IMG/VR virus record: IMGVR_UViG_3300032325_000466
Coordinates: 64,001 to 128,000 of that record
DNA: 64,000 bases
From: a virus
Direction: 5' to 3' (one strand)
Both the position numbers and the translations under genes were made by a program. The notes under the pieces are model-generated. The model saw nothing but the letters and a program-made list of their open reading frames with translations, did no database searches and had not been told where the DNA came from. Positions 35,001-53,176 of this stretch are shown in pieces (positions within the stretch are counted from its first letter, which is position 1; each line of letters begins with the position of its first letter).

Positions 35001-38000
35001 AGACAGGTAAAACACTATCCGATACCGTATGCGAATCTTATATTGGATTACCAACAGCAACCGGTATCGCTTATATGGCTCCCATACAACCAAATGTATT
35101 TGGATTGTATAACAGTGGAGATTATATAAATGCAAATGACTCAGTGCTACATATTGGCTTTGCCACAAGTAGAAATGATGATGTTTCACATAGCTCATAT
35201 AATTTAATAAAAGCCAATTATGCTAGCGACTTTTTACCAGGATTGCCAGGTGTAGGTAGTGCCATAGAACCTGAATCGCTATACCTAAAAATGATAGACA
35301 GTTTATCAGGTGTAGATACTGCAGGCGGCATAGTTCCTGATCCATTCTTACCAAAGCCAGTGCAAAGCGGTATCCTATCTCGCCCACGCCAAAGCTTCTT
35401 TTATAATAGATTTAAGGCGCTACAGAATTATCTTGAATACGCGAACACAGTACTTGCACAATTCCCTATCTTAGAGATAAGAAATGGAAATCTTTCATTC
35501 TTATATAAAGTAGGTGAAGTTAACAAGTCTACTGATCCTGTATATAATACAGACCCAACAAGCCCATATTACAGTCCCGACCCATGGACAGGTCCCATAC
35601 TACCATTCTATGATACAACTGATTACTGGACACCAATTAATTGGTGGGCAACTGGTTATAACGATAATACTAAATCGTCATTACTAGTTCCTCTATATAG
35701 TGATCTAAGTACTATTGGCAATCCTCAAAATGGATTAATAGTAACTGTGGCTGAAAACGGTGCTGGCAGTCAAGAAACATATAGATATGTAGCTCCTGTT
35801 GGCGACACTGCAGGATATTGGGTAAGAATAGGTTTACAAAATGGTACTATAAAATTTAACAGTTCTTTATGGGATTACGCTACTGCAAGAATAGGATTTG
35901 GTGATAGTTTCTTTGATACCCAGCCATATGATTATTACCCATCAGCAGAAACTAGAAATATAATTAGATCGTTGAATGAAGAAATTTACATTGGTGAACT
36001 ACTAATCTTTAGAAATAAAAGTCTAATATTACTGTTTGAATATATCCAAAGCGAAACAGTTGAATCGCAGAATTATATGCCATGGTTGAATAAAACATCA
36101 TTTATAGATGTATCCCATACTATACGCGAACTATTACCGTTAAGAGTATTTAGGTCTGATAATCAAGTATTCTTATCAGGGTATATAAACGAAGCCAAAC
36201 CATATCATGTAGTAATTAAAGACTTTATCTTTAACTATACTCGCACTGATCTTTATAACAGCGATATAACCGATTTTGATTTACCTGCAAAGTATAATAC
36301 AGACTACGATCAATTTATTACACCAATGTTAGTTTATAGTGGAGCGGATGATATCAATGAATTCTTACCAACTGATCCTATATGGCAATCACCAGACTAT
36401 ACAACATGGTATAACAATTATGGATTAAGTCTATCTACTGTTTATAAGTATCCAATGACTACGGTAGCATCATACCTTAATTTGGTAAGTGATAATTTAT
36501 ATGTAAATAATGTGTCTGGTTTCCCAGTAACTGGTACAGTATTAATAGGTACTGAATTGATTGGTTACACTGGTATTGATACTGCATACAATATACTAAC
36601 TGGATTGACACGCGGGGTTAAAGATACTCTAGTTCAAAATCATATATATGGAGAACAAATTTACATTGATTTGCCTCCTATATTAGTTTTAAATAGCGGA
36701 AGAGAATATACCGTTCCTCCTAAGGTTACTGCATACATAGATACTAGTGTCTATCCTGCACCAAGAGTTGCTGCTATACTAACACCCATAATGTCTTTTG
36801 ATAAAGTTATAGGTGTTCAGGTAGTAAATTCAGGCTCAGGTTATGCAGTTTTACCCGAAATTGTATTCGAACCAGCCCTTATAGAGAACTTTACTAGCAC
36901 AGGAGTAGACACTGATCTAAACTATATTGCGCTTACTACTACTGGATTAGTAACGGGTGATTTAGTAAGATATGATGTAGGTACTGATACTGAACCAGTT
37001 AGTGGACTTCAAGTGGGCGCATACTACTATGTAAATTTACTACAAACTACACCAACAAATGTTATTGCACTTTATACTAATTATGTTGATGCTATTCAAG
37101 ATCATAACAGAGTTAATCTGTATACTCAAGGAAGTGGCGACAATAATATATTAGCATTAACTGCGGTAGCAAGTTGCACTACAACATCACAGCCTGTTCG
37201 TGAAAATATAACTACTCTTAGATTTGATAGAACTTCTTATAACTCTTCACTGCAAACATGGCAACCAGGACAATTTTATGGTTCTAAGTATACCGGGGAT
37301 TTAAGTCTTACTAAGTTAGCTAGCTCATCTTTACTATTGCAATCTACCAACCCACCGATATCTGAGATATTGGCTAGTGCCCAAGGACAAACTTTTGAAA
37401 TACTAGAAGTTAGAAATGTAGAAACTTATACTTGGTCATCACGCACACGCTCAGTGTTTGCAACTACTAGCCCTGATCGTATTACGGTTATGTCATCTGC
37501 TGGTGGCGACTCGCTTAATCCCACTTTAGGATTTTATGTAGATATGCCCATTAAGTTTGAGGGTGAGGAATTTGGTGGACTAAGTGTTGGAGTTACTTAT
37601 TATGTTACCGATGTATACAACAACCTTGAATTCTCAGTATCTGAAACAATCGGCGGCATGCCCATTACTCTTACCACTGAGTCTGCACCATCGGCTGGTC
37701 TACTAGCAATAACAGGTACGCTTACAAATCAAGCAGTAATTAAATTGTTTTATCCAGGTATATTAAAAGCAACTGCTACAACTAAAATAACTAATATTGT
37801 TACCGTACCACTATTACCCACTGGGTTAGGCGGAACTCAAGGATTCTACACAGGGTTACCAATATACTTTACAGGAAGGAACGTACAAGCTGGTAGCTTT
37901 GTAATAGGTAAAGGGTATACCATAGTTAGTGTAGGTACTACTGATTTTACATTATGCGGGGCATCGGCTAACGAGATAGGTGTTCAATTTACTGCAACAT

Positions 38001-41000
38001 CTGTGGGTACTGGAACAGGTGTAGTATCAACTGTATTTGGCGATGTAATTGCTAATATAGAGTTTTATGTTACTACTGTTATTGACGCAGAGAATTTTAC
38101 AATGTCTTATACCAGTACTCCTACTGAGACAACTCTGTATGCAACTACTGCTGGAACAAATTATGTGACTGTAGAAAGCGTAAATGGATTTAATGTAAAT
38201 GATCCTATAATCTTTACTAATATGCAAATTGCAGGTACTAGGGTTACAGACTTTGGAAATATCCAAGCAGGCATAGTTTACTATGTACAGTCAATAATTA
38301 ATGGTACTCAAATTCAAATTTCTACTCAATTTAATGGTGCAGCGTTAACCCTTACTACAGTGGCAGTAGCAACCGACACTAATGGTACAATAACTAATCA
38401 AAGTGAGAATGTACAATTAAATAATGCAATTGGAGAAATGACTTTAGTAGCTGGTCTGCCAATTAGCCCTGGTCAAATTAATGGCCAACGATTTGCCTTT
38501 TACCCAACCTCAAACGCATTCACTGGTGTTAGTGGTATAACAAGTGACTTATTAACAAGAACTATTACAGCAGCAGTAAGTACCAATAATGGTTTATATT
38601 TAGCTATCAGTACTGGTGGAATATCGGATGTGTATATAAATATGCCGTTTATAGTTCAAACAGCAATTGGTGGATTGTTGACAGGTACTACATATTATGT
38701 TAGAAGTACAGGCACATTAACCACTACTGTAACCAATACTACTACTTCTACTAACAGGTTAACTTGTAGTACAACAGCAGGATTTTATGAAGGTATGGCA
38801 ATAAAATTCTCAGGTGCGGTATTTGGTGGAATAACTCCAAATCTTACATACTTTATATTATCAATAGTTGATGGAAACACATTTACTATTTCTAATGACA
38901 TAGGCGGTACTGAAGTTACTCTATCTACTAGTGTTGGTAGTATGCTGCTGACCGGGGAACAGTATATCACTGTAAATGATGGAGCAGGCTCCCAAGTATT
39001 CTTATCTGATGATATTGCTTTCGTCACTCTAGACCAGTACCCAACCTCACCCCCAACATTCAATGTTGGATATACTGCAGGTGGATATTTCGTACAAGTA
39101 GCAACTCCAGGTACAGGTTATGCAGTAAACAATACTATTACGGTTGATGGTGCTCAATTAGGTGGAGAATCAGGTACAAATGATTTAACAATGACAGTAT
39201 ATGAAATATCATCAATTGGTGAAGTTGTTACAGTTATTAGTACCGGTGCACCAGCTGGAATAAATGCAAATTATTACTTAAAAGTCATATCAGAATATGA
39301 ATGTGAACTTTACTACAACTCATCATTATCTATTCCAGTACCAGGATCACAATTCCCATTTAATGGTATTACTCAAACTACAGTTACTGGGGTAACTGCT
39401 GCAACCAATGAACTTACTGTAAACAGTTCAGCGAGTTTTGCTATTAATGACCCTGTTGTATTCACTGGAGATGTATTTGGTGGAATGATATTGGGAGAAA
39501 CTTATTATATTAAAACAAAACCATCACCAACAACAGTAACTATTTCAACATTCCCAAATGGTACAGTATTTGATATTACCGCAGATGAGACAGGCGATTG
39601 TATAATGGCTACTGTAGGCGATGTTAGCTTATTGCCTGACCCATTCTATGCTACTCAAAGTATAGTTATTTACAATAACAAAGTATATCAGTGTGCAGTA
39701 AGTAACAACGATGATGATTTTGTTTTCCGTAAATGGCAATTAATGGACAGTGGGGATAGACAATTAAACGCACTTGACAGAATAGTGGGCTACTATCAAC
39801 CTACTATTAATATGCCTGGTCTAGATCTTACACAGTTAGTAGCTAATATTGTTTACCCAAATAATACTTACTTAGATAACGCATTTGCTCCAGCAGATGA
39901 GTACCCCTATGATACACTACTATTAGATAACACCTTTACTCAAGTCAATGACAATATATACACAGTACAGGGTGATGAATTTACGGCTGGTTATGGTCCT
40001 GAAGAATTAGTACCAGGCATAGTAACTGACAATCTAACAATGATTGTAAAAACACGCCCAGGTAGTAATTGGGAATCTACTGTTTATCAGAATGTGGGAT
40101 ATAATTCAGTTTCTACCGAGATTACTCCAGCACAACCTGATCAAGTACTATACTCATTTGTAAATGTTGTAATAAACCCAATACAAATATCAGTGTTTGA
40201 TATTGATACTACCACAAAACTAAGCACAAGATTGTATGATTACACTATAGATTGGATTAATAAAGTAGTTACACTATCTACTCCGCTAGCAGAGAACCAC
40301 ATACTTAGAATTGATGTATATGAAGTAGGTAATGGTGACCAGCTAGTTCGTTCAAATTCACAAACTACCCCATTCTTCTTAAATGAAGATACTCAATTTA
40401 GTGAAATTTATTTAGACTGCCTCTACTCTGCTTCTATCACTAATGGATCAGGATTAATCATACCTGGTAGTGCACCAAGTTCAATTGAAGCAATTGAAAC
40501 CAGCGCAACAGATAACACTATTTTATGCTTATCAGTATCTTCATTTACTCTTAATGCTCCAATTACTTTCCAAGGCGCAGTTTTTGGCGGTGTCGCACTA
40601 GACACTACATACTATGTTAAAACAGCAAGCGCAATTACAGACAGAATAACAATATCTGATACACTAGTTGCTGGTATAGCAGGTCCTACCCTAACGCTAA
40701 CATCAGCTACAGGTAGTATGCAAGCGATTATTCAAGCTGATAACGGTTTAGTTTGGACAGATCCAATCATTGTTCATAATGGTACAAGATTAACATTGGG
40801 TGAGCAAAGCTTTGTCACACAAACTAAGAGTAGCACAAATTCAATAGTTTGTAACTCTACGGCTCACTTTGACTTAAATGATACCGTTACTTTTAGTGCA
40901 ACAATGTTTGGTGGCATTATACAACCTAACACGGTATACTATATCGCTACCATCGTAGATGATAACGATTTTACTATTTCAGAAACTCTAGGTGGACCTA

Positions 41001-43111
41001 TACTCGCACTAACAGATGCTACTGGTGCTGCATTCTGTATAACAGCAGACTATGCGATTGCAGTAGCTGGTGATGAAGTTGGTGTCGCTCGCCCAGGAAT
41101 ATCAGCTAAAATAGTATTCCCAGTTATCTATACCACATCAGATGATTATGTATCATTTGCAGTATTTGGTCAAACAATACCTGAACAATATGGATACACT
41201 CTACCTGAAACACAAACTTATACAGGTACAGGTGCTCTACAAACATTCTCATTATTCAACTATGCTAGCGGAGATAATCCAAATAATGCTATTGTTGAGA
41301 TTGATGGATTGCGCTTATCAAATACTGATTATACAATTGATGCTGAATTATCTACGATAACCTTTACAACTGCCCCTGCACTTGACGCTAAGATAGCAGT
41401 TACTACATACAATCTAACTGATCGTCAGTATTTTAACACACAGTATGACATTACTGGCAATATCATTTCTTCAATCATTGGTATCAGTAATGCTATCACC
41501 GTGCCCCTAGCTAATACACCAGTTTATTCTTCTACTTCAGTGGGTAACTTAATTACTTGCGCTTCAACTAGTAATTTTATAGTTAATCAACCTATACAAT
41601 TCTTTGGCGTTGCCTTTGGAAATATACTAACTGATGGTACAGTGTATTTTGTTCTTACCGTTAATAGCCCAACCGAGTTTACTATATCCCAAACACAGGG
41701 AGGTAGTGCTTTCAATCCAGGTACAGCATCAGGTATTATGCTAGGTTCAGTTGGTGGACAACCTGCTATTCGCGTAACTACACAATTGGATAATGAATTT
41801 GTTACTAATGATTTAGTTGTTATTGATGCAACTGATGGTTCAGTACAGCTAAACAATAACGCATATTATGTTCATGTAATCAGTCCTACTCAGTTTGACT
41901 TATACACTGAACCATATGATCCTGCTATTGACGCTACTAATTACCCAGTAACTCAATCAGGTACATATACCGGTGGAGGATTTACTTGGTTAGACGGTAT
42001 GTTTACTCTGACTGATGTTGTCGCTACTGGAACTTCAAGTGTAGATAATACTATTATTGTTCCTGACACTGTTGGTCTAATAGTTGATACTCCAGTACTG
42101 TTCACTGAGCAGGGTAAGAAAGATGGTGAAACTACGCTAGGTGGATTAATAATAGGCCAAGAATATTACATAAGGTCAATTCCCAATACTACTAAGTTTA
42201 AAGTTTCTACTATTAGAGCAGGCGCCGAAGTTATTTTAACAACTGATGCAGGTAGTATGAATGTTACTCAGTGGGAACAACTAAATGTAGATAGATTATG
42301 GGTAACAGTTAACGGTTATCGTGTACCTTCATCGTCACTGCGCTTGAACCCAAATAATAATTTAAGCATTTTAGTTCAAATGGCTGCTACTGATGCGGTG
42401 ACTATCACTAATATGATTCCCACAGCTACACCAAATGAATTAGTGTATCTACAAAATGTTAATAAAGATAGTGTACCCGCAGTGTTCCGTGCAAACTCAA
42501 ATACACGCACTTGGCTAACTCAACCATTGATTAAAACTGATACCTATATATTCATGAGTGATGTAAGCAGAGTTACCGACACTGTTATACAAAATGCGGT
42601 AGCTCCCGCCCCAATTGACGATGCAATGTATATCCCATTACAAGCTGATAGAAATACCATTTGTCAAGTAATACTATACAATGAAACTTCGGGAGAATAT
42701 CTATTTGGAGTCTATGAAGTGGTAATCATAGCAACTGCTCCTGTACTTAAGATTATACCTACTGAACCTATTTCGGGCACTATATTCGTCAGCGAAGGTA
42801 ACAACTTAGTTATTACTATAACAATGGGTAAACTACTCTTTATCAACGGTGAATATATTTCATTTAGCGAAGTTAATTATGGAGCTAACTCGGTTGGTAA
42901 ATTACAACGAGGAATCAATGGTACTGGCATACAACCAATAACTCCTACATATTCTGAAGTCTATGGATTACTGACTGCCAACTTATTACCCGAAGCAGAG
43001 TATACTGTAACTTGGAATCCTATACCCGGTGTTTATAATGCTGTTAAGGGTGATCCATTACAATTAGCAGACACAACGGCAGCAAATTTCTTAAAAGGTG
43101 ACATCCCTTAA
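26003..43111 (+). CDS. Giant (5702 aa) baseplate-associated virion protein
   Basis: Single uninterrupted ORF after gp6; FG-GAP-like repeats and about ten repeated beta modules. Confidence 0.75.
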   Translation: MATRIRTLNFLPDIFRTPTNSQFLGATLDQIVDQPNTMKIEGYVGSKFGYGVNAKDYYVVEPTKTRTDYQLEPGVVFTKKDTSTAQDFISYPGIVDALKLAGGVTNNNDRLFNSQFYSWDSFTNLDPLINYTQYYWISDTAFPAVTVSTNTVYNSGAYVVTSLPTGYEITSDTDPVGSINPSITLLRGGVYTFQVSQATQFWIQGQPGITGYDPAQPNMQTRDVFGVTNNGANVGLVTFAVPYKDAQDQYIFSGNNLVDVVSDIPYDQINGKLLSEIGNIDGLTSLEGKTVMFYGDVSASTYFYQITYTAGPTPTDPIIILVPTVGIPVNEKITATSGTTYIGRNFYRSPAGLITIIPYLSSLLDTLYYQDGTNPLQVGVINLIESNFTDILDVDTIIGKKTYTSPNGVVFTNGLKVSFSGNITPASYSNNEYYVQGVGTAISLIPVTALAVPESFTKQSASYIPYDTTPYDTKNYDAQLYVPIDQDYITISRDSIDKNPWSRSNRWFHTDVINATAQYNNDPTIVDRYATQANKAKRPIIEFYPNLGLFNSGIVGKAPVDFIDIRTTDAFNQVAGQIIYYPDVAVFTSETAIIAAATSATSTTIQINSSSILPGSGSFAVGQYITDSTNVLPYNTTISAISGTTGVLTITVEWPNPDTIVPTGPASLVANPSPNDNYAIFDGARIVFTNDTNINVRNKIYVARFSIIIPNVQTVITLTEADDGLVLPNEQTVAYKGYYNQGKGWYFDGLNWYEAQQKITVNQPPLFDIFDGDNISLGNPEVYAGTSFKGNKLFAYAIGSGTNDPILGFPLKYVTIGGLVGDISFDVSLNSDTFNYVRGSKSITQKVNTGYVYNYSDIDTYARQLGWQTAVAPSRQYQLFSADYDKTLLTQQSTVDPLYPDTTTTRNVFVVECDIAADLTSIWPYLQVSRNNDILAPTQYTSIVSDTTTTVIIDVDEPLIETVYQIAILSNQVSSTAFYQIPINLNNNPLNEEITTLNVGDIRGQYQSIFYNNPDTTGEVFGSNNYRDLGNLVPWGNKIIQNSASLVLPGTFLRKPDHNLILSLQYNSQQYITFKSLLIDTVNNTAYETYTTPANALDDALDQMTASKLESGPFFWSDMIPSKAAYITNVYRFANALDVSIYPLSQVYNFETANYNGVLVYLTRNNIITQLVTGVDYTVSTTAPTLTIETDLLPNDLITIKQYNQTYGSYVPNTPTKLGLYPAFIPSVILDANYAQPTYFIKGHDGSYNKLYGEYIDGVLTDLRDQVLLEFELRVYNNLKLSNTIPIRDYDVLPGFFRDSQYSFSEVLSIYEQYFLNWVGQNRIEYKPQVYINGDQFTYNYNQSGNKINQEQIPVGNWRGVYQYFYDTASPDTAPWEMLGFANQPTWWTSRYGPAPYTSDNLILWGDLAAGINWNNGDPVVIPQAVRPELLQVLPVDSAGNLVSPFVAVVGNYDQRTFNNDWRAGDVGPTEFSYRRSSSWPFDLMKILALTKPANFFNLGVDVDNYKYSKEFNQYLVNERSHLVISDIEIYGTGTPKTSYINWIVDYEKQVGIDATTNITTLLDNLDVRLVYRLAGFSDKTLLRFFVEKGTPNSTNASLMIPDESYAVLLYDNQPFEQIVYSSVVIQKTVNGWKVFGNSQSRAYFTINPPKIDGRYDTISVENLSVQAANNYQLDREAIIPYGTEFYNAQDVSQFLASYGAYLSSQGVLFDQIESGLQVSWSQMIAEFLYWAQSGWQVGSIVNINPAANLISINQESAIVQPLTLQRQNFVLNQNLYPIQSIDLSVVRDGTLFTAQTLNRGDTVAYGQFNMSAIEHGIVFDNVTLFNDVIYNLVTGLRQNRIFLRGTKSAEWNGTLDAQGFILNQDNINEWSKETKYTTGEIVKFKNKYWVALAKLQASETFQEQFWKRTDYNEIQKGLLPNSSTRSYESTLYYDTNYANLEQDADLLSFSLIGYRPRDYLAVADLTDITQINVYKNLIKEKGTRTAINTFKGASLAQGDINYDVYENWAIKSGEFGGVLNNNFIDFRLNQNQLTGNPSIVGLTTGVFTDGVQQEVPLYSVFNYGRPVTDPNVLATLPTDTPDKLFPSAGYPNFNDVKTYSYFYSGLNNAVVPLSRLYVGEYLWVADFKGTWQVFTPQSISQVINVINNLNNTITVQFNAPHNLVKFQPFAIINFNTNIDGYYIVTSVLDPTRVTVTLSLSSATLNITGTGIGVAFTSQRVGKPSDIASFPVNDNEFIKTKVWVDENNDGSWAVYRKSLNYQYKSELIKDDSFTFGSAVAYTSDLGYLISDASLGEVYRYTYNSVFARYDLTQTLVGATTFGTTIGYAGSIFAISQPTGVTTNDRIVSVYNLVTNTLTNALQLIQTITAPSGITNWGRAITVSGDQQWLYIGGYEQNVVYAYKFNATTDEYDHVATIALSTSETGDNFGYSLSTNYYGNTLVVGAPGENYNATTDNWGYTYVFNRLSQTFEFQFDQAPSFTLAFTPTTVSVAVNGTALEATEYTLIGNVVSITKSLNTGDIIIVSGNQFVLMQELTTQNQPRIGVQFGYSLDTNNYGTEILVGAPFEVNASNQEGAVYRYTTSGGAYGYIIGSKECYVYDTTNILINGYQVTVPAGDAASTASAINAAKITNVTASAADNILTIRLVNVKLALMNDKLNLQVLQTNILDQLGITVYTQTQTINDPNQQSRTQFGTAVRFNELGSFVVSAPVAARYAHTTFDMTDDENFDNDTLFDNNTTQWVDRFINAGAVYMYDYLSVYNENLHNVGKFVYAQSVNALNENYGAQPYYGTALDFNSNNVIVGTPGFKPGTTNGQVVVYDNSTGVQNWATYRYSAPVVDTGAIQNVQLYSAITNNTLENLDYIDPLQGKILGVVRENLDVVSNADPAVYNSSTANNQGAIVWGERQLGQLWYNTSTTRFVNYHQNDSVTYNSQWWGRVFPGSNVQVLSWITSDQLPVNYSGPGTPYDITSYSIEYTTNSTGALVPVYYYWVRNTNIIFSKTGKTLSDTVCESYIGLPTATGIAYMAPIQPNVFGLYNSGDYINANDSVLHIGFATSRNDDVSHSSYNLIKANYASDFLPGLPGVGSAIEPESLYLKMIDSLSGVDTAGGIVPDPFLPKPVQSGILSRPRQSFFYNRFKALQNYLEYANTVLAQFPILEIRNGNLSFLYKVGEVNKSTDPVYNTDPTSPYYSPDPWTGPILPFYDTTDYWTPINWWATGYNDNTKSSLLVPLYSDLSTIGNPQNGLIVTVAENGAGSQETYRYVAPVGDTAGYWVRIGLQNGTIKFNSSLWDYATARIGFGDSFFDTQPYDYYPSAETRNIIRSLNEEIYIGELLIFRNKSLILLFEYIQSETVESQNYMPWLNKTSFIDVSHTIRELLPLRVFRSDNQVFLSGYINEAKPYHVVIKDFIFNYTRTDLYNSDITDFDLPAKYNTDYDQFITPMLVYSGADDINEFLPTDPIWQSPDYTTWYNNYGLSLSTVYKYPMTTVASYLNLVSDNLYVNNVSGFPVTGTVLIGTELIGYTGIDTAYNILTGLTRGVKDTLVQNHIYGEQIYIDLPPILVLNSGREYTVPPKVTAYIDTSVYPAPRVAAILTPIMSFDKVIGVQVVNSGSGYAVLPEIVFEPALIENFTSTGVDTDLNYIALTTTGLVTGDLVRYDVGTDTEPVSGLQVGAYYYVNLLQTTPTNVIALYTNYVDAIQDHNRVNLYTQGSGDNNILALTAVASCTTTSQPVRENITTLRFDRTSYNSSLQTWQPGQFYGSKYTGDLSLTKLASSSLLLQSTNPPISEILASAQGQTFEILEVRNVETYTWSSRTRSVFATTSPDRITVMSSAGGDSLNPTLGFYVDMPIKFEGEEFGGLSVGVTYYVTDVYNNLEFSVSETIGGMPITLTTESAPSAGLLAITGTLTNQAVIKLFYPGILKATATTKITNIVTVPLLPTGLGGTQGFYTGLPIYFTGRNVQAGSFVIGKGYTIVSVGTTDFTLCGASANEIGVQFTATSVGTGTGVVSTVFGDVIANIEFYVTTVIDAENFTMSYTSTPTETTLYATTAGTNYVTVESVNGFNVNDPIIFTNMQIAGTRVTDFGNIQAGIVYYVQSIINGTQIQISTQFNGAALTLTTVAVATDTNGTITNQSENVQLNNAIGEMTLVAGLPISPGQINGQRFAFYPTSNAFTGVSGITSDLLTRTITAAVSTNNGLYLAISTGGISDVYINMPFIVQTAIGGLLTGTTYYVRSTGTLTTTVTNTTTSTNRLTCSTTAGFYEGMAIKFSGAVFGGITPNLTYFILSIVDGNTFTISNDIGGTEVTLSTSVGSMLLTGEQYITVNDGAGSQVFLSDDIAFVTLDQYPTSPPTFNVGYTAGGYFVQVATPGTGYAVNNTITVDGAQLGGESGTNDLTMTVYEISSIGEVVTVISTGAPAGINANYYLKVISEYECELYYNSSLSIPVPGSQFPFNGITQTTVTGVTAATNELTVNSSASFAINDPVVFTGDVFGGMILGETYYIKTKPSPTTVTISTFPNGTVFDITADETGDCIMATVGDVSLLPDPFYATQSIVIYNNKVYQCAVSNNDDDFVFRKWQLMDSGDRQLNALDRIVGYYQPTINMPGLDLTQLVANIVYPNNTYLDNAFAPADEYPYDTLLLDNTFTQVNDNIYTVQGDEFTAGYGPEELVPGIVTDNLTMIVKTRPGSNWESTVYQNVGYNSVSTEITPAQPDQVLYSFVNVVINPIQISVFDIDTTTKLSTRLYDYTIDWINKVVTLSTPLAENHILRIDVYEVGNGDQLVRSNSQTTPFFLNEDTQFSEIYLDCLYSASITNGSGLIIPGSAPSSIEAIETSATDNTILCLSVSSFTLNAPITFQGAVFGGVALDTTYYVKTASAITDRITISDTLVAGIAGPTLTLTSATGSMQAIIQADNGLVWTDPIIVHNGTRLTLGEQSFVTQTKSSTNSIVCNSTAHFDLNDTVTFSATMFGGIIQPNTVYYIATIVDDNDFTISETLGGPILALTDATGAAFCITADYAIAVAGDEVGVARPGISAKIVFPVIYTTSDDYVSFAVFGQTIPEQYGYTLPETQTYTGTGALQTFSLFNYASGDNPNNAIVEIDGLRLSNTDYTIDAELSTITFTTAPALDAKIAVTTYNLTDRQYFNTQYDITGNIISSIIGISNAITVPLANTPVYSSTSVGNLITCASTSNFIVNQPIQFFGVAFGNILTDGTVYFVLTVNSPTEFTISQTQGGSAFNPGTASGIMLGSVGGQPAIRVTTQLDNEFVTNDLVVIDATDGSVQLNNNAYYVHVISPTQFDLYTEPYDPAIDATNYPVTQSGTYTGGGFTWLDGMFTLTDVVATGTSSVDNTIIVPDTVGLIVDTPVLFTEQGKKDGETTLGGLIIGQEYYIRSIPNTTKFKVSTIRAGAEVILTTDAGSMNVTQWEQLNVDRLWVTVNGYRVPSSSLRLNPNNNLSILVQMAATDAVTITNMIPTATPNELVYLQNVNKDSVPAVFRANSNTRTWLTQPLIKTDTYIFMSDVSRVTDTVIQNAVAPAPIDDAMYIPLQADRNTICQVILYNETSGEYLFGVYEVVIIATAPVLKIIPTEPISGTIFVSEGNNLVITITMGKLLFINGEYISFSEVNYGANSVGKLQRGINGTGIQPITPTYSEVYGLLTANLLPEAEYTVTWNPIPGVYNAVKGDPLQLADTTAANFLKGDIP

Positions 43112-46439: not shown

Positions 46440-46492
46440 ATAAATGATACACTTTACAATAACTGATCACGATATGAAGGGCAAATTCGGTA

Positions 46493-46523
46493 TTGACTTT
46501 TACCATCGAACAGTGTATAAATA
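46493..46523 (+). promoter_or_regulatory. Dual promoter for tmRNA (sigma70 and late)
   Basis: TTGACT-17 nt-TATAAA, where the -10 is also a perfect TATAAATA. Confidence 0.7.
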
Positions 46524-46527
46524 GTAT

Positions 46528-46980
46528 TGTTCGTTGAAAGGTTCATCATAAGCACATACGCTGATAGCAAGCGACTAAGGCAGCTATGCGAAATCTTAGT
46601 TTAATGTGTGCTTTTGATGAATCAGTAGAGGAATTCGTTGAGGGTAACCTCTAGAAGTCGTTATTGGACTAGCTGTGGACGTGGGTTCGATTCCCACCGG
46701 GTCCACCAAAAGTATACTACTTGATTGGTTGACTACCCAAGGTTATCGTTGATAGAGAATTAGTCGCTCAGTAGATAACAAGTGTACTTCTGATGGGCCT
46801 GACCTGGTTTCGACATGGTTAGAAAGGAACGATTAGAATCGGCAATGTTAAAGCCGTTAGGGTTGGGATTTCTCGGCCGTAGAGACAAAAAACTATAAAT
46901 GCTAACGCATCTAACGATGAGGTTTTCGCTCTAGCAGCGTGATCTCCGGGGTTGACAACCTTGTAACCAAATAGTCAGGA
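46528..46980 (+). ncRNA. ssrA: Circularly permuted (two-piece) tmRNA: acceptor piece to CCA at 46708, intervening segment 46709-46794, coding piece from 46795
   Basis: T arm GTGGG-TTCGATT-CCCAC and CGGGTCC-A-CCA lie upstream of 5' end GGGCCTGACCTGGTTTCGAC; acceptor stem has G3-U70; helix 2 CATGGTTAG/CTAGCTGTG; tag frame 46901-46942 ANASNDEVFALAA-stop; outer ends approximate. Confidence 0.92.
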
Positions 46981-46981
46981 A

Positions 46982-47007
46982 AGGCTCGCAAGGGCCTTTT
47001 CTTTTGG
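46982..47007 (+). terminator. Intrinsic terminator after tmRNA
   Basis: aggctc-gcaa-gggcct stem followed by a T run. Confidence 0.85.
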
Positions 47008-47023
47008 CAGCATAAATACTAGC

Positions 47024-47569
47024 ATGAACATCAAAGAAATAATCACCGAAGAAGTAGTTGCCGAATACTGGACCACTGGAAGGGGTACTACAAAACAAGG
47101 TATTGATATGGGTGACATGATAAAATCTCAAGTTGAGCTGGTCAACACCCCATTAACTCAACTTAATGTTAGATATTCCCCTTTTAGTAATTCTGCAAAA
47201 ATACATGAATATTATCTATACGATAAAGAAACTGATAAGTGCGTTGGGTATTTTTTCGTAGAAATGCAAAATAAAAAATTTGATAAAGTATTGAAACCTG
47301 GTATTAGCGCAGTAATTCCCCATATAGGACTAGCACTCCGCGTTCAAGGTAAGGGTATAGCTAGTCAAATTTATACAACATTTTTACGAGGTGGTCCATG
47401 GGTGTTCGTAACTGAATCGCATAGTAATGCAGCCGCAGCACTTTGGGACAGGATAGCAACTGGTGATATCATTGAAGTTTATGTTGATGCAAAAACCGAA
47501 AAACGAATTGAAAATTCAAAGAGTGTGATCGATTATAGAATGATTGGTCCAAAAGATAGGTTCCTCTAA
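47024..47569 (+). CDS. GNAT-like acetyltransferase
   Basis: Acetyl-CoA motif RVQGKGIA, plus S..A..LW; late promoter 47013-47018 5 nt upstream. Confidence 0.55.
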   Translation: MNIKEIITEEVVAEYWTTGRGTTKQGIDMGDMIKSQVELVNTPLTQLNVRYSPFSNSAKIHEYYLYDKETDKCVGYFFVEMQNKKFDKVLKPGISAVIPHIGLALRVQGKGIASQIYTTFLRGGPWVFVTESHSNAAAALWDRIATGDIIEVYVDAKTEKRIENSKSVIDYRMIGPKDRFL

Positions 47570-47584
47570 ACAAATATTCACCAT

Positions 47585-47610
47585 AGGCTCGCAAGAGCCT
47601 TTTCTTTTGG
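47585..47610 (+). terminator. Intrinsic terminator, near-identical copy of 46982-47007
   Basis: aggctc-gcaa-gagcct followed by a T run. Confidence 0.85.
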
Positions 47611-47677: not shown

Positions 47678-48460
47678 ATGAAAAAAATTCTAATGTGCGA
47701 TCCCCGATTCTTTGGGGTTACTTATGATATCAACCCATGGATGTCTAGTAATATTGGGTGTGTAAATCAATCACTTGCTCGTGAACAATGGACTCTATTG
47801 CGAGATGCTATCTCAAGTGTAACTGAAGTAGAAGTATTGCCGGGAGTAGAAAATTTACCCGATTTAGTTTTTACTGCCAATGCTGGCATTGTTAGAAAAA
47901 ATCAAGCAATCGTAGCTAAGTTTAGCAAATCTGAACGGCGTGCAGAAGAAGAGCATTTTAAAAAATGGTTTAGTGAGCATAAGCTAATCACTGTTCAAAC
48001 TGTTCATTCATATGAGGGTGAAGGTGATCACCTAGTAGATAAATTAGGCCGTCATTGGCTGGGTACTGGCTTTAGAACAGATGGTAAAGTAGCTGAAGAA
48101 TTGACTAGAATTCTATGGGTTCGTATGAATACATTAGAGTTAGTTGATCCTCGCTGGTATCATTTAGATACTTGTTTTGCACCTTTACCATATGGTGAAG
48201 TAATTTGGTATCCTGGTGCATTTTCAGAGAGTAGCCAACAACTTATTCGCAGCGCATTTAGAACTAGGATAGAAATAAGTGAAGAAGATGCTAGTGCATT
48301 TGCTTGCAATTTGGTAGCACTGGGTAATAATATCTTTCTTCCCAAGAACTTTGGTGCATCAGACCGATTACAGGGTCTTGGTTACAAAGTCCAAGAATTT
48401 GATTTAAGCGAATTTATGCGAGCAGGTGGCGCAGCCAAATGCTTGACGCTATACTATTAA
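47678..48460 (+). CDS. Amidinotransferase/pentein family, arginine dihydrolase-like (ArgZ/AgrE N-domain)
   Basis: INPWM, PDLVFTAN, ER..E, EGEGD, GFR, YHLDT, FACN, GGAAKCLTL motifs. Confidence 0.8.
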   Translation: MKKILMCDPRFFGVTYDINPWMSSNIGCVNQSLAREQWTLLRDAISSVTEVEVLPGVENLPDLVFTANAGIVRKNQAIVAKFSKSERRAEEEHFKKWFSEHKLITVQTVHSYEGEGDHLVDKLGRHWLGTGFRTDGKVAEELTRILWVRMNTLELVDPRWYHLDTCFAPLPYGEVIWYPGAFSESSQQLIRSAFRTRIEISEEDASAFACNLVALGNNIFLPKNFGASDRLQGLGYKVQEFDLSEFMRAGGAAKCLTLYY

Positions 48461-48481
48461 ATCTTATTTGGGATAATTAAC

Positions 48482-48505
48482 GGGGGCAATAGCCCCTATT
48501 TTTTT
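48482..48505 (+). terminator. Intrinsic terminator
   Basis: gggggc-aata-gcccct followed by T7. Confidence 0.85.
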
Positions 48506-48577
48506 ATCCAATGCGGATGCTGAGATTAAATAGAGTTACTAATCTTTGCATACGATAACTATATAAGGGAGATAGAA

Positions 48578-48877
48578 ATGACAAAAGTGTATATGGTTGA
48601 TATAGATAACACTATCTGCATAAGCAAAGGTAATGACTATGCTAACAGCGAACCATTAATAGATCGTATTGCAAAAATAAATGAGTTGGTAAAACAAGGT
48701 CACAAAGTCATTTATTGGACAGCGCGAGGCAGTAGCAGTGGAATAGATTGGACAAACGAAACACACAGTCAACTAACAGCCTGGAACTGTGAATACCATG
48801 AAATTCATATGGGAAAACCATCATATGATATATGGATAGACGACAAGGCTATTAATTCAGAGGATTTTTTCAAGTGA
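48578..48877 (+). CDS. Small HAD phosphatase (capsule-biosynthesis type)
   Basis: VDIDNT, WTARG, GKP..D..IDDK motifs. Confidence 0.85.
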   Translation: MTKVYMVDIDNTICISKGNDYANSEPLIDRIAKINELVKQGHKVIYWTARGSSSGIDWTNETHSQLTAWNCEYHEIHMGKPSYDIWIDDKAINSEDFFK

Positions 48878-50865
48878 ATATTTTAATTTTCTCCCACAGT
48901 TGTAATCTCGGCGGAGCAGAGAATGCACTAATTTGTTTGGTATCAGAATTAAGTGCTAAACATACAGTAACAATATCTTTCCCTAATGCACAAGGTCCAC
49001 TAATAGATTATTTTACTAGAAAGAATATTAGATGCGTGTCGTTACCTCTAGGATTCTCCCTCCCCAATCCACATGACGCCTTGGTTAAGTTTTCACAAGT
49101 ATGTAATGATAATGTAATCGAACAAATACGAGAATTAAATTTCGACATGATCATATGCAATACTATAGTTACTTTGCATGGATTACTATTAGCAAAAATT
49201 TTAAAAATTCCAAGTATATTGTATGCACATGAAAAATTAGAGTTTGATACTGATTTAGCACCTCACGGATGTTCCTCTAGGTTTTATTTAGATTTGGTGG
49301 GAATGGCGTCCAATCATATTATGTGTACCTCCGAGTATGTTAAAAAATCATTTACTCAATTTAATAATAAAGCTAGTGTATTGTATATGTTTGATCAACA
49401 TATACAGTCGATAGAAACACCAGTTATGAATGATGACTTGGTTTCTATTTCGGTGATAGGTATAAAATCGATTAGAAAAAACACGCATTTCGCAATAACG
49501 GTATTAAAAGCCTTGCGTCTAAGGGGAATGAACGCTGAATTACATTTAATTGGTCAAAATGGTTCTGGAATGCATTTATTAGAGCAGAAGTTAAAAATTC
49601 GCGGAGAACCAAATATCCATGTATACCCTAATCAACCCGATCCGTATGCAATTGGAAAAGGTAAAAAGATAACATTAATAACAGCTATTTGTGAACCGTT
49701 TGGATTAACCATGATGGAATCATTGTTCAGGGGTATCCCTGTTGTTGCATCGAAATGCGGTGGCCCGGAAGAGGTATTACCAAAATCATATCTATATGCA
49801 GTAAATGATTTGGAGTCATGTGTTCGAAATATAGAAGAAGTGGTGTCAAACTATAAAACTCACGCTAATACGGCTAAGAAAACTTATAACAATTTTATAA
49901 AAAAACATCCTAAAAAAGAAATATCTGATGTTATCTCATCGGCAATTGACAGCGCAAAACAGGATTTTAGTAAAAATGGTAACGGATCTACTTCAATTAA
50001 GTGGGAAGATTTTAAATTCTTGGTAGAAAGTCCATTGTCCAATGAGGATATTGTAAAAAATATAGCAGAAGTTACAAAGACCACTACTGATGTCATAGAA
50101 ATTCAATTGACAAAAGAACGTGTAACACCCGGGATATCCGTGCTGAATGATATTCGTAAGTTTGATGTTGTCCCCTATACCATATCCGACAACTTGACAA
50201 ATCTTTACAAAGAAGGCACCGGACTAGCAATTGAATTATTATCTTCTATAGGTGATAGTGGAAAAATTTCCATGCTAAGTTATATATTGTTAGCTCTAAA
50301 AGAAAAACAACAGATTAACCCAATAAAAAAAGTACTGTGTTTAGGCGATGGTATAGGAATAGATGCGATTAGGTTTGCACAATGCGGATATGAGGTTGAT
50401 TATCTTGATTTTGATTCTTCAAAAATGGCAAAAATTGCAGAATTAAACTTTAAAAAAATTAAAGAAAATAATCCCACACTAAAATTAAACATTGTAAAAA
50501 CGCCCACACAAAAATATGATGTAATTATATCACTTGAAGTTATCGAGCATGTAGACGATCCTGTTGATTTTTTAAAGTTTATTCATAGTATGATGAACGA
50601 TGATGGATTTTTGTTTATTTCCGAATGTTTTGATGGTATATATGATGTTTGGCCTACACATATACTAAAACATGAAGAATTTTCTAATTTACTACCTTTA
50701 TTGGCAAGTCCTTACTTTAAATTAGTAGATATAAATAACACCTACTTTGGAAAACCATATATGTTTCAAAAAATAGACGCAGTGTCATCTGATGTATTGG
50801 ATTTTCTAAAAAATAGAGAATGGGTGATAAATTTTATAAATACAAAACTTAAAATTGGAATTTAA
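48874..50865 (+). CDS. GT-B glycosyltransferase fused to a class I SAM methyltransferase
   Basis: GGAE, EPFGL..MES..GIPVVAS.CGGP.E in the N half; VLCLGDGIG, YD.I.SLEV.EHV.DP in the C half. Confidence 0.8.
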   Translation: MNILIFSHSCNLGGAENALICLVSELSAKHTVTISFPNAQGPLIDYFTRKNIRCVSLPLGFSLPNPHDALVKFSQVCNDNVIEQIRELNFDMIICNTIVTLHGLLLAKILKIPSILYAHEKLEFDTDLAPHGCSSRFYLDLVGMASNHIMCTSEYVKKSFTQFNNKASVLYMFDQHIQSIETPVMNDDLVSISVIGIKSIRKNTHFAITVLKALRLRGMNAELHLIGQNGSGMHLLEQKLKIRGEPNIHVYPNQPDPYAIGKGKKITLITAICEPFGLTMMESLFRGIPVVASKCGGPEEVLPKSYLYAVNDLESCVRNIEEVVSNYKTHANTAKKTYNNFIKKHPKKEISDVISSAIDSAKQDFSKNGNGSTSIKWEDFKFLVESPLSNEDIVKNIAEVTKTTTDVIEIQLTKERVTPGISVLNDIRKFDVVPYTISDNLTNLYKEGTGLAIELLSSIGDSGKISMLSYILLALKEKQQINPIKKVLCLGDGIGIDAIRFAQCGYEVDYLDFDSSKMAKIAELNFKKIKENNPTLKLNIVKTPTQKYDVIISLEVIEHVDDPVDFLKFIHSMMNDDGFLFISECFDGIYDVWPTHILKHEEFSNLLPLLASPYFKLVDINNTYFGKPYMFQKIDAVSSDVLDFLKNREWVINFINTKLKIGI

Positions 50866-50885
50866 ATTTATGAAGGCATATTAAA

Positions 50886-51854
50886 GTGATAGTAACATCA
50901 TGTCCTTTAAGGATATCATTAGTAGGAGGATCAACTGATCATCCACATTTTATTAATAAGTACGGACAAGGATCTGTCATCAGTTTCCCTTCAACTCTTC
51001 GGACTTATATAACTATTCACCAAGATATTTTTGGTAGTAATTCTATAGGTAATAATTATCATATTAACTATAGCAAACGAGAAACGGTAAAAAAAGTATC
51101 CGAAATTCAAAATGAATTAATACGATATTGTTTTGAATATCTCAACGTAGATAAAATGAATTGCAGTTTAACCTCTGATATTTACAGTGCCGGTTCAGGT
51201 TTAGCAGCAAGTTCTTCTTATTTACAAGCATTAATAAAAGCCATATATGTATTGCGTGAAGAACATATAACTGAATTCGAAGTATGTAAAATGGCAGAAA
51301 TTATAGAAAGAAATTTTAATCCATTGGTAGGCCAACAAGATTTCTATGGTAGTATTGGTGGATTGAAACGAATTGATTTCTTTAAAAACAGTGACCCTAG
51401 CATCCGTTATTTAAGTACAAACATATTCAAACAATTGAACATATATTTACTATATACAGGAGTGTTACGCAGTAGTACCAATATATTAGAAAGTATAAAT
51501 ATAGACAAATCAGTGCCTTTATTGCAAGATGTTGAAGATTTAGAGATAGCTATAAAAAATTGTGATATTGAAATGTTTAGTAATGTTATCAATCGCGGCT
51601 GGGAAAATAAAAAAGCTACTAGCAATTTAATATGCGAATCTTCTACACTTGAAGAATTAGATAGTAAACTCAAAAATGATCCTGATATACTAGCACACAA
51701 ATTATGCGGTGCTGGTAATGGTGGATATTTTTTAATTTTTACTAATTTGAATAGTGGATTTGATTCAGCTAAATATGATATGATGAAAGCTATCAGCTTA
51801 TCAGAAACCGGACTAAAATATATTAATTTAAAAAATGAATTTACAAAACTTTAA
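50886..51854 (+). CDS. hddA: GHMP sugar kinase (HddA-like heptose-7-phosphate kinase)
   Basis: PLRISLVGGSTD, GSGLAASS, VGQQD, KLCGAG.GG motifs; GTG start. Confidence 0.75.
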   Translation: MIVTSCPLRISLVGGSTDHPHFINKYGQGSVISFPSTLRTYITIHQDIFGSNSIGNNYHINYSKRETVKKVSEIQNELIRYCFEYLNVDKMNCSLTSDIYSAGSGLAASSSYLQALIKAIYVLREEHITEFEVCKMAEIIERNFNPLVGQQDFYGSIGGLKRIDFFKNSDPSIRYLSTNIFKQLNIYLLYTGVLRSSTNILESINIDKSVPLLQDVEDLEIAIKNCDIEMFSNVINRGWENKKATSNLICESSTLEELDSKLKNDPDILAHKLCGAGNGGYFLIFTNLNSGFDSAKYDMMKAISLSETGLKYINLKNEFTKL

Positions 51855-52332
51855 ACATTGTCTTGACAATATAAATCAAGATGACCTATATAAATTAAAA
51901 CAATACATTCTTGGTGCAAAAAACGTAATTATTTTGGGTAATGGTGGCAGCAATGCTGTTAGTTGTCATATTGCACAAGATTATACAAAGGCGTTAGGAA
52001 TCAGAGCTACAGCATTTGGAGACAGTTCCAGAATGAGTTGTTATGCTAATGATTATGGTTGGGAGAATGCGTATACTAAATATTTAGAACATTTCGCAGA
52101 TTCGGATACCATAGTGATACTAATATCATCTTCTGGTAACTCACAAAATATACTTAATGCTGCTGGATACTGTGCGGGTAAACATGATATGATTACTCTA
52201 TCCGGATTTAATCATGCCAATAAATTAAGAACAGTGTATGGTCCATTATCTTTGTTACATTTTTACATCCCCAATACTGATTATGGAATTGTAGAATTAC
52301 TTCACGAACTTATTTTACATTCTGTTATATGA
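51835..52332 (+). CDS. gmhA: SIS-domain phosphoheptose isomerase-like protein
   Basis: GNGGS.A...HIA.D, ANDYG, ISSSGNS.NI, YG.VE..H motifs. Confidence 0.8.
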   Translation: MNLQNFKHCLDNINQDDLYKLKQYILGAKNVIILGNGGSNAVSCHIAQDYTKALGIRATAFGDSSRMSCYANDYGWENAYTKYLEHFADSDTIVILISSSGNSQNILNAAGYCAGKHDMITLSGFNHANKLRTVYGPLSLLHFYIPNTDYGIVELLHELILHSVI

Positions 52333-52468: not shown

Positions 52469-53176
52469 ATGAAAAAAATCTTACTAGCATCACTAATCAT
52501 GGCTGCATTTGGTAGCGCACACGCTCAAGTAGCAGGTCTATCAGGAAACCTAGGTCTAACTACTGACTATCGTTTTCGTGGTATTTCTCAAACTCAAAAT
52601 GGTGCAGCCGTTCAAGGTGGCATAGACTACGCTCATAAGAGCGGCTTTTATGTTGGCAACTGGAACAGTTCAGTTAGTAGCGCACTATTTCCCGCTAGCG
52701 CCGGCATCGAAAGCGATCTATATCTAGGCTTTAAGAAAGAAGTTTTCAAAGGCGTAACAATCGATGTTGGTACAATGAGCTATGTTTATTCACGCGCATC
52801 AAGCTTTGGTACTAGCGAAGTTTATGCTGGTGTAGGTTATGGTCCAGTTACTGTAAAAGTTAGCCAATCACTAAGCAACTATTTTGGTGTAGCAGATAGC
52901 GTAGGTTCACGCTACTACCAAGCTGACCTAGCACAGCCAATCACTAGCAAGATCACTCTAGGTGCTCATGTTGGTCGTACATTTGTCAATAACAACACTT
53001 CACTAGACTATACTGACTATCGTGTTGGTGCATCTTATAACGCAGCTGGTTGGGTATTTGGTGCAAATTTCCACACTAACAACAACTATGGTAGCAGTGC
53101 TAAAGCTGCTATGACAGTTGCAGGTCAGTCACTATACAAAAACACCGTTGTACTATCAGTAGCAAAATCATTCTAA
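52469..53176 (+). CDS. TorF/TIGR02001-family outer-membrane beta-barrel protein
   Basis: Signal peptide ..AHA; TTDYRFRGISQT..AVQGG.DY.H.SGFY.G.W; C-terminal Phe. Confidence 0.85.
   Translation: MKKILLASLIMAAFGSAHAQVAGLSGNLGLTTDYRFRGISQTQNGAAVQGGIDYAHKSGFYVGNWNSSVSSALFPASAGIESDLYLGFKKEVFKGVTIDVGTMSYVYSRASSFGTSEVYAGVGYGPVTVKVSQSLSNYFGVADSVGSRYYQADLAQPITSKITLGAHVGRTFVNNNTSLDYTDYRVGASYNAAGWVFGANFHTNNNYGSSAKAAMTVAGQSLYKNTVVLSVAKSF

What the first reader, a model, noticed from the sequence alone, without database searches (positions are those of the whole stretch)
46528..46980. Phage-encoded circularly permuted (two-piece) tmRNA
Seen: the tmRNA 3' end (T arm, CGGGTCC-A-CCA ending at 46708) comes before the 5' end (GGGCCTG at 46795). 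The two pair as an Ala acceptor stem with G3-U70. Helix 2 forms across the pieces (46814-46822 with 46669-46677; 46828-46834 with 46656-46662). A tag frame, a dual promoter and a terminator complete the unit. The two outer ends also show 10/11 complementarity (46533-46543 with 46957-46967). Known: permuted tmRNAs occur in Alphaproteobacteria, some marine cyanobacteria, some Betaproteobacteria and jakobid mitochondria; the phage tmRNAs I know are one-piece. Inference: a phage-borne, possibly independent permutation that supports ribosome rescue during infection, and one that standard annotation would miss or mis-call as a tRNA fragment.
Basis: partly seen in the sequence, partly recalled or inferred. 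Interest (0 to 1): 0.9.

Follow-up and report, generated by a model that had tools for sequence, protein, structure and literature searches.

The report
Two-piece tmRNA gene in freshwater jumbo phage
A large uncultured freshwater phage carries an intact-looking split (circularly permuted) gene for tmRNA, the RNA that rescues stalled ribosomes, but such phage genes are already described, standard tools find this one, and it is of the known betaproteobacterial type.

Summary
ARAGORN calls a permuted tmRNA at 46616-47033 with the tag ANASNDEVFALAA. Rfam beta_tmRNA scores 92.9 bits (cut-off 84) and tmRNA_permuted 95 (cut-off 47). The alpha and cyano models stay below their cut-offs.

The carrier is a phage: a 191-kb IMG/VR record, about 54% complete, distantly related to Rak2-like jumbo phages, with 26 tRNAs. 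No SmpB or integrase gene was found in the record.

- Phage two-piece tmRNAs are in print (Melnitz paper, PMC9004378: 53 ARAGORN-called cases).
- I found 43 more IMG/VR contigs with one.
- This scan has noted such genes before on other DNA: 1672 notes in at least 1055 genomes.
- An independent permutation is not supported.

Two things are new here. The 5' part (46528-46633) is a fossil of an older allele, mainly its cut-out spacer. The whole tRNA-like module was then replaced. A lake sample also holds the older-type allele and, in short pieces, a form without the fossil. The loop involved instead forms a covarying local pseudoknot.

Verdict: a new member of a known kind, of modest interest.

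The parts
46493..46523 (+). Promoter-like site: -35 TTGACT (46493-46498), 17-nt spacer, -10 TATAAA (46516-46521), which overlaps TATAAATA (46516-46523)
   Evidence: Read. The hexamers and spacing are conserved in sister contigs L212, L213 and L214. Not listed by the simple scan, because the last -10 base is A. TATAAATA is not enriched.
46528..46548 (+). Remnant of the 5' end of an older acceptor piece. It holds the first copy of the direct repeat TTCGTTGA (46530-46537).
   Evidence: Aligns with the start of the acceptor piece of L212, L213 and L214, directly behind the same promoter. Repeat found.
46549..46619 (+). Fossil spacer: a structured element that in sister phages is the intervening segment between CCA and GGG
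   Evidence: Metagenome scan, sequences and alignment A3. The whole leader 46528-46655 folds with z = -4.43. No Rfam family matches it at E <= 1.
46634..46708 (+). Acceptor piece of the working tRNA-like module. It begins with the second TTCGTTGA copy (46634-46641). Then come the two P2 5' strands (46656-46662, 46669-46677), the T arm (46681-46697), the 3' acceptor strand (46698-46704), discriminator A and CCA (46705-46708).
   Evidence: A variant whose promoter abuts 46634 directly is seen in run X3.
46709..46794 (+). Current intervening segment (86 nt, no ORF). It folds back on itself and extends the acceptor stem in the precursor.
   Evidence: Precursor fold. It differs in sequence from the spacer of the sister contigs.
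46795..46834 (+). Coding piece, 5' part: 5' acceptor strand (46795-46801), D-loop analogue, and the two P2 3' strands (46814-46822, 46828-46834)
   Evidence: Both P2 strands differ from those of L214 in a matching way.
46835..46900 (+). PK1 region (hairpin 46840-46843/46853-46856 plus a 22-nt expansion) and the leader to the resume codon
   Evidence: Rfam alignment. Near-identical to L214. The expansion is shared with L012, L023, L027, L030 and L034.
46901..46942 (+). Tag reading frame: resume codon GCU, tag ANASNDEVFALAA, stop TGA
46947..46977 (+). 3'-tail pseudoknot. The G run (46947-46951) pairs with CCUUG (46959-63) in the loop of hairpin 46953-46958/46972-46977.
   Evidence: The hairpin is part of the Rfam beta model. 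The fifth pair of the knot covaries: C-G in 23 sequences, U-A in 9, other in 3.
46980..47005 (+). Intrinsic terminator: 8-bp stem with a GCAA loop, then a U tract
   Evidence: A near-identical terminator occurs at 47585-47610.

Best explanation
This is a phage-borne ssrA gene for a two-piece tmRNA of the betaproteobacterial type.

Proposed mechanism:
- One precursor of about 475 nt is made from the promoter at 46493-46522 to the terminator at 46980-47005.
- Host RNase P cuts 5' of G46795, and host tRNA 3'-end enzymes trim to CCA at 46708. This discards the 86-nt spacer.
- The two pieces stay joined by the acceptor stem and the two P2 helices.
- Host AlaRS charges the RNA through G3-U70. Host SmpB delivers it to ribosomes stalled on broken mRNAs.
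- Translation switches to the tag frame and adds ANASNDEVFALAA, whose ALAA end is the usual degradation signal. The ribosome is released.
- Together with the phage's 26 tRNAs, this would keep translation capacity up during infection.

The gene is a mosaic. Its promoter, PK1, tag and 3' tail are those of an allele seen in sister phages. Its tRNA-like module and spacer were swapped in. The older allele's spacer survives as a 5' leader that a variant form lacks.

Shown: sequence, structure, covariation, synteny and allele structure.
Inferred: transcription, processing, charging, SmpB use, tagging and benefit to the phage.
For: - Detection above curated cut-offs by two methods.
- Only the beta-type model passes its cut-off.
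- An unconstrained fold gives the tRNA-like domain.
- 14 of 21 pairs covary and G3-U70 is invariant in 34 sequences.
- The 3'-tail pseudoknot covaries.
- The tag ends in ALAA with a stop codon.
- Phage structural genes flank the gene.
- The same locus (DUF2452 gene, tmRNA, plcP, agt) is kept in phage contig L023, with about 70% nt identity in the tmRNA.
- The arrangement is spanned by a 2204-nt contig from a second sample.
- The mosaic origin is shown by sister contigs L209-L214.
- No SmpB or integrase gene was found in the record.
Against: - There is no expression or processing data; no RNA run is listed.
- The gene is sporadic in the phage family. Only 4 of the 80 best DUF2452 loci have a tmRNA within 3 kb, so it is dispensable.
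- The score of 92.9 bits is far below the bacterial beta-type genes at 160-331 bits.
- The 5' end of the mature acceptor piece is unknown, because the leader is a fossil with no tRNA-like cut site.
- The host is unknown, so its compatibility with host SmpB and AlaRS is assumed.
Confidence: 0.75

Rival explanations
1. The RNA is made but works as a competitor or re-router rather than a plain helper. It would take host SmpB and stalled ribosomes away from the host tmRNA, for example to blunt a host response or to recycle host proteins.
For: No phage SmpB gene was found, so it must compete for the host's. A TLD-only phage tmRNA is reported to inhibit host tmRNA (PMC4131195). The Melnitz authors raise selective tagging as an idea.
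Against: The tag frame is complete and ends in the ordinary ALAA degron, and all rescue-competent parts are present. Nothing here sets it apart from a normal tmRNA.
Confidence: 0.1
2. The gene is a decaying or neutral passenger: a recombination product that is no longer under selection in this phage.
For: The locus carries fossil parts (46528-46633) and is polymorphic in the lake population. tmRNA is present in few members of the phage family. Relative L023 holds further broken duplicates.
Against: Every defining helix is intact: 7/7, 5/5, 9/9 and 7/7 pairs. The swapped-in module brought matching strands on both pieces. The promoter, tag and terminator are near-identical to L214.
Confidence: 0.1
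3. The permutation arose independently in phages. The likeness to the beta type would be convergence.
For: Virus-borne copies do not nest inside either sampled bacterial clade. They have longer spacers, 24-100 nt against 4-42 nt, though the viral set is biased by my search pattern. The backbone of the tree is weak (60/89).
Against: The parts that the permutation created are shared with bacterial beta-type genes: the 3' tail with its conserved-loop pseudoknot, and the hairpin form of PK1. Only the beta model passes its cut-off.
Confidence: 0.04
4. It is a host fragment, an attachment-site copy or an assembly chimera rather than a phage gene.
For: Island integration into ssrA leaves tmRNA gene fragments (PMC4131195), and fragments of ssrA have been reported in prophage genomes (PMC9004378). 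The locus contains repeats that could mislead an assembler.
Against: The gene is whole, with its own promoter and terminator, and sits between phage genes. No integrase gene was found. An independent contig spans 46477-47200 with 5 differences. The synteny is shared with other phage contigs.
Confidence: 0.01

Closest known systems
Betaproteobacterial two-piece tmRNA (Rfam RF01850 beta_tmRNA; covered also by RF04321 tmRNA_permuted, PMC11915505)
   Same: Same gene order, tRNA-like domain and G3-U70. Same hairpin-type PK1 and same resume context. The tag is of the AND..ALAA kind. Same 3' tail, with a hairpin whose CCUUG loop pairs with an upstream G run.
   Different: - The score is much lower: 92.9 bits against 160-331 for 19 complete bacterial genes.
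- The spacer is 86 nt against 4-42 nt.
- CCA is encoded, as in some but not all bacterial copies.
- PK1 carries a 22-nt expansion.
- There is a roughly 105-nt fossil leader in front.
- The tag has three extra residues.
- It lies on a phage, and no SmpB gene was found in the record.
Two-piece tmRNA of aquatic T4-like phages (Methylophilales phage Melnitz, pelagimyophages; PMC9004378)
   Same: A phage-encoded permuted ssrA in an aquatic phage that also carries tRNAs. The authors propose the same role, upkeep of the hijacked translation machinery.
   Different: Melnitz's gene is reported as alphaproteobacterial in type and carries a glutamine riboswitch. This one is beta-type, has no riboswitch match, and sits in a Rak2-like jumbo phage from fresh water.
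One-piece tmRNAs of large phages (Bacillus phage G, mycobacteriophages of the Bxz1 group; PMC4131195)
   Same: A phage-borne ssrA.
   Different: Those are in the standard gene order. This one is permuted.

Membership tests
Permuted (two-piece) tmRNA, beta type (RF01850 / RF04321) | Covariance-model score at or above the curated cut-off | tested here: met
   RF01850 scores 92.9 bits (cut-off 84) and RF04321 scores 95 bits (cut-off 47). RF01849 scores 45.1 (cut-off 50) and RF01851 scores 42.5 (cut-off 70), so both fall short.
Permuted (two-piece) tmRNA, beta type (RF01850 / RF04321) | Circularly permuted order: the T arm and 3' acceptor strand with CCA lie upstream of the 5' acceptor strand and the tag frame | tested here: met
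   CCA ends at 46708, the 5' strand starts at 46795, and the tag runs 46901-46942.
Permuted (two-piece) tmRNA, beta type (RF01850 / RF04321) | Alanine identity: 7-bp acceptor stem with G3-U70, discriminator A and CCA | tested here: met
   7 of 7 pairs form in the free fold. G-U at this position is invariant in 34 of 34 relatives, while positions 4-6 covary.
Permuted (two-piece) tmRNA, beta type (RF01850 / RF04321) | T arm with the canonical T loop, and inter-piece P2 helices | tested here: met
   The T arm is 5 of 5 paired, with a GGUUCGAUUCC-type loop. The P2 helices are 9 of 9 and 7 of 7 paired.
Permuted (two-piece) tmRNA, beta type (RF01850 / RF04321) | Tag frame that starts at a GCN resume codon and ends in a hydrophobic degron and a stop codon | tested here: met
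   ANASNDEVFALAA followed by a stop.
Permuted (two-piece) tmRNA, beta type (RF01850 / RF04321) | Beta-type 3' tail: a G run, then a hairpin with a conserved CCUUG-containing loop, then a terminal hairpin | tested here: met
   Aligned by the model. Shared with bacterial L160 and L161 and many viral copies. The knot pair covaries: C-G in 23 sequences and U-A in 9.
Permuted (two-piece) tmRNA, beta type (RF01850 / RF04321) | Cleavage of one precursor into two stable RNAs, alanylation, and SmpB-dependent tagging | not testable with these tools
   No RNA run holds the stretch. No SmpB gene was found in the 191-kb record, so the host's protein would be needed.
Phage-encoded tmRNA | The gene lies in a phage genome, not in host DNA or at a prophage end | tested here: met
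   Portal, baseplate wedge and hub, and tail-fibre genes lie in the window. It is an IMG/VR virus record. The baseplate wedge is about 33% identical to those of Rak2-like jumbo phages. No integrase gene was found.

The most novel reading that the evidence does not exclude
Virus-borne beta-type two-piece tmRNAs may be an old lineage that lives in phages and evolves by swapping whole modules (tRNA-like domain, spacer, tag part) between alleles. On this reading the window has caught an intermediate of such a swap, with the old spacer left as a fossil. The same lake population also keeps an allele with a non-canonical T loop (GGCAGAG) and a matching change in the D-loop analogue. Together with the broken tandem copies in L023, this would be a live example of the duplication-and-loss route by which circular permutation of an RNA gene arises and can be reversed.
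Probability: 0.35. Interest if true: 0.5.

Novelty: new member of a known kind. Interest (0 to 1): 0.3.

Why it matters
As a plain case it adds little. Phage two-piece tmRNAs are published and common in aquatic viromes, and ordinary annotation finds this one.

Three things do add something:
- It places a beta-type copy in a freshwater Rak2-like jumbo phage.
- It shows that such genes are mosaics whose tRNA-like module and spacer are exchanged as units.
- It corrects a tempting structural reading. The conserved 3' loop forms a local pseudoknot rather than pairing with the 5' end.

The allele series (window, L214, L212, L023) would be useful material for anyone studying how RNA genes become permuted.

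Tried and rejected
- Cultured phages: blastn of the 521-nt gene against 50,697 records gave no match.
- Host from the tag: a degenerate tag pattern over the GTDB genomes hit mostly one-piece tmRNAs of Lysobacterales and Thiotrichaceae, plus a few short contigs binned in MAGs. It gave no host lead.
- Host from the neighbouring Gcw_chp protein: 1563 homologues, none with an organism name.
Reading the small-genome group (G068, G178, G179) as the host lineage stays a guess.
- RNA evidence: no RNA holder is listed.
- The 5' leader as a new functional domain or riboswitch: rejected. There is no Rfam match. The element is the spacer of sister alleles. Short pieces in run X3 point to a form without it.
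- The outer helices and the 3' hairpin could not be scored on the MAFFT alignment, because it misaligns them. I used motif pairs instead.
- PMC516066 (the description of the third permuted lineage) is not held in the paper library.
- 'Dual promoter': TATAAATA is no more frequent than chance in the window.

Full report
**What is there.** ARAGORN finds one tmRNA in the window, flags it as permuted, and gives the tag ANASNDEVFALAA. Rfam's beta_tmRNA model matches 46600-47002 end to end at 92.9 bits (cut-off 84). The general tmRNA_permuted model matches 46650-46942 at 95 bits (cut-off 47). The alpha and cyanobacterial permuted models score 45.1 and 42.5 bits, both under their cut-offs. I folded the two proposed pieces together with no constraints. 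In the precursor fold the 86-nt spacer pairs with itself and extends the acceptor stem.

**Is the structure selected?** I aligned 34 related genes: 31 from virus contigs, including the window, and 3 bacterial. Over the acceptor stem, T arm and inner P2 helix, 91% of cells are paired, against 75% in shuffles and 44-53% in slid controls. 14 of 21 pairs carry changes on both sides, and the G3-U70 pair is the same in all 34. The outer helices were misaligned by MAFFT and could not be scored this way.

**The carrier.** The window is part of a 191,027-bp IMG/VR virus record that CheckV rates 54% complete.
- The window holds portal, baseplate hub and wedge, tail-fibre and SbcCD genes.
- The wedge protein is about 33% identical to those of Rak2-like jumbo phages of roughly 350 kb.
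- The record has 26 tRNA genes.
- No SmpB gene and no tyrosine integrase gene was found in the record.
- DNA runs that hold the stretch are lake, river and other freshwater metagenomes. No RNA run is listed.

**Is it new?** No.
- The Melnitz paper (PMC9004378) describes a phage two-piece tmRNA. It counts 53 ARAGORN-called two-piece genes among 133 unique phage tmRNAs, 50 of them from marine or aquatic phages.
- The 2025 tmRNA database paper lists 79 phage sequences and is the source of the permuted model.
- One pattern scan of IMG/VR gave 43 contigs with the permuted layout. ARAGORN of them permuted, all but L013.
- Earlier notes of this scan mention the same kind of thing 1672 times, in at least 1055 genomes.

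**Origin of the permutation.** The gene shares with bacterial beta-type genes the parts that the permutation itself created. These are a 3' tail with a G run and a hairpin whose loop carries CCUUG, and a hairpin in place of PK1.

Among sampled Burkholiales-order genomes the permuted form is rare: 3 of 151. It concentrates in one family (16 of 40) and in a small-genome subgroup of another family (3 of 41). The rest have one-piece genes.

I built a tree of 54 genes with the spacers removed.
- The window is sister to L023 (96/91 support), inside a virus-only group.
- The 18 bacterial genes form two well-supported clades.
- No viral gene sits inside either bacterial clade.
- The backbone is weak.

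So an independent permutation is unlikely, and a recent transfer from the sampled hosts is not shown. An old acquisition followed by diversification in phages fits best.

**Family context.** L023, a 65.5-kb phage contig, has the same neighbourhood: the DUF2452 gene (60% aa identity), then the tmRNA (about 70% nt identity), then plcP and agt. The DUF2452 protein marks a large phage family of more than 534 IMG/VR contigs. Of the best 80 loci, only four carry a tmRNA nearby, while about a dozen carry tRNA genes there. The gene is therefore accessory cargo at a hot spot.

**The 5' part is a fossil.** The stretch 46528-46655 folds strongly (z = -4.43) and looked like a new domain. A metagenome scan for its core found five sister contigs. 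In them the same element is the spacer between CCA and GGG, behind the same promoter.

L214 shares the window's promoter, PK1, tag and 3' tail almost letter for letter. Its tRNA-like module is different. Compared with L214:
- The window has lost the old acceptor piece and kept the old spacer (46549-46619).
- It has gained a new acceptor piece, a new spacer and a new 5' part of the coding piece (about 46621-46834).
- Both P2 strands changed together.

L023 shares the same junction and carries further broken duplicates, one with a small ORF.

A 2204-nt contig from a second sample of the same study spans 46477-47200 with five differences, so the arrangement is not an assembly error. A third sample holds a joint from 46619 straight into a coding piece, which is the L214-like form. 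It also holds short pieces in which the promoter abuts 46634 and in which 46537 is followed directly by the sequence that lies just after the second repeat copy. That is a form without the fossil, deleted between the two TTCGTTGA repeats. These pieces are short, so they are hints rather than proof.

**The 'outer ends' pairing.** The 10/11 complementarity is real. Its 5' arm lies at the deletion junction and is not kept in L214, L212 or L023. Its 3' arm is the conserved loop. That loop has a better partner: the G run just upstream. Together they form an H-type pseudoknot. Where the loop reads CCUUG the base before the G run is C (23 sequences), and where it reads CCUUA the base is U (9 sequences). 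There are three exceptions, two of which may be wrong motif hits.

**How it most likely works.** See the best explanation. Nothing on expression, processing, charging or tagging could be tested here.

**Verdict.** This is a new member of a known kind, with an instructive mosaic history.

Noticed in passing
L214:2035-2470, L213:12380-12739, L210 (last 320 bases): Sister tmRNA alleles from three metagenomes have a T loop reading GGCAGAG instead of the universal UUCGAUU type, on an intact 5-bp T stem. The D-loop analogue is changed as well (ACAG in place of CUGG). The acceptor stem and G3-U70 are intact. It could be a co-varying tertiary contact or an inactive allele.
   Followed up: partly
L023:1940-2400 (= L054:3498-3960): Upstream of its working tmRNA, this relative holds a full copy of the old spacer, a roughly 48-codon ORF, and a 72-nt copy of the coding piece's 5' end (starting GAG, not GGG) fused to half a spacer. 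It is a fossil tandem duplication that places 5' and 3' tRNA-like halves in the standard, unpermuted order.
   Followed up: partly
window 26003-43111 (+): A single open reading frame of 5702 codons between the baseplate wedge gene and the tail-fibre genes.
   Followed up: no
window 46980-47005 and 47585-47610: Two nearly identical intrinsic terminators (stem with a GCAA loop, same U tract) close the tmRNA gene and the next gene, so a terminator module is reused.
   Followed up: no
window 52469-53176 (+); also L073 downstream of its tmRNA: A Gcw_chp (PF09694, TIGR02001) protein at 165 bits, a family described as bacterial, encoded by the phage. A homologue lies right after the tmRNA in relative L073. 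1563 homologues turned up in metagenomes.
   Followed up: partly
window 47678-52332 (+): Between the tmRNA and plcP/agt the window has a block absent from L023. It holds a DDAH/amidinotransferase-like protein, a phosphoheptose-isomerase-like protein, a glycosyltransferase-methyltransferase fusion, a GHMP-kinase-like protein and a SIS-domain protein. Together they look like a sugar-modification cassette.
   Followed up: no
L158 (1071-bp contig of a Flavobacteriaceae MAG), L136, L148: Short contigs binned in Flavobacteria and Verrucomicrobia MAGs carry beta-type permuted tmRNAs like the viral ones (L158: 138.8 bits for RF04321). They are probably phage DNA mis-binned into bacterial genomes.
   Followed up: partly
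genome G000:C1:29501-29574 (-), outside the window: ARAGORN reports a tRNA with a two-base anticodon (ta) inside the phage's 26-gene tRNA cluster.
   Followed up: no
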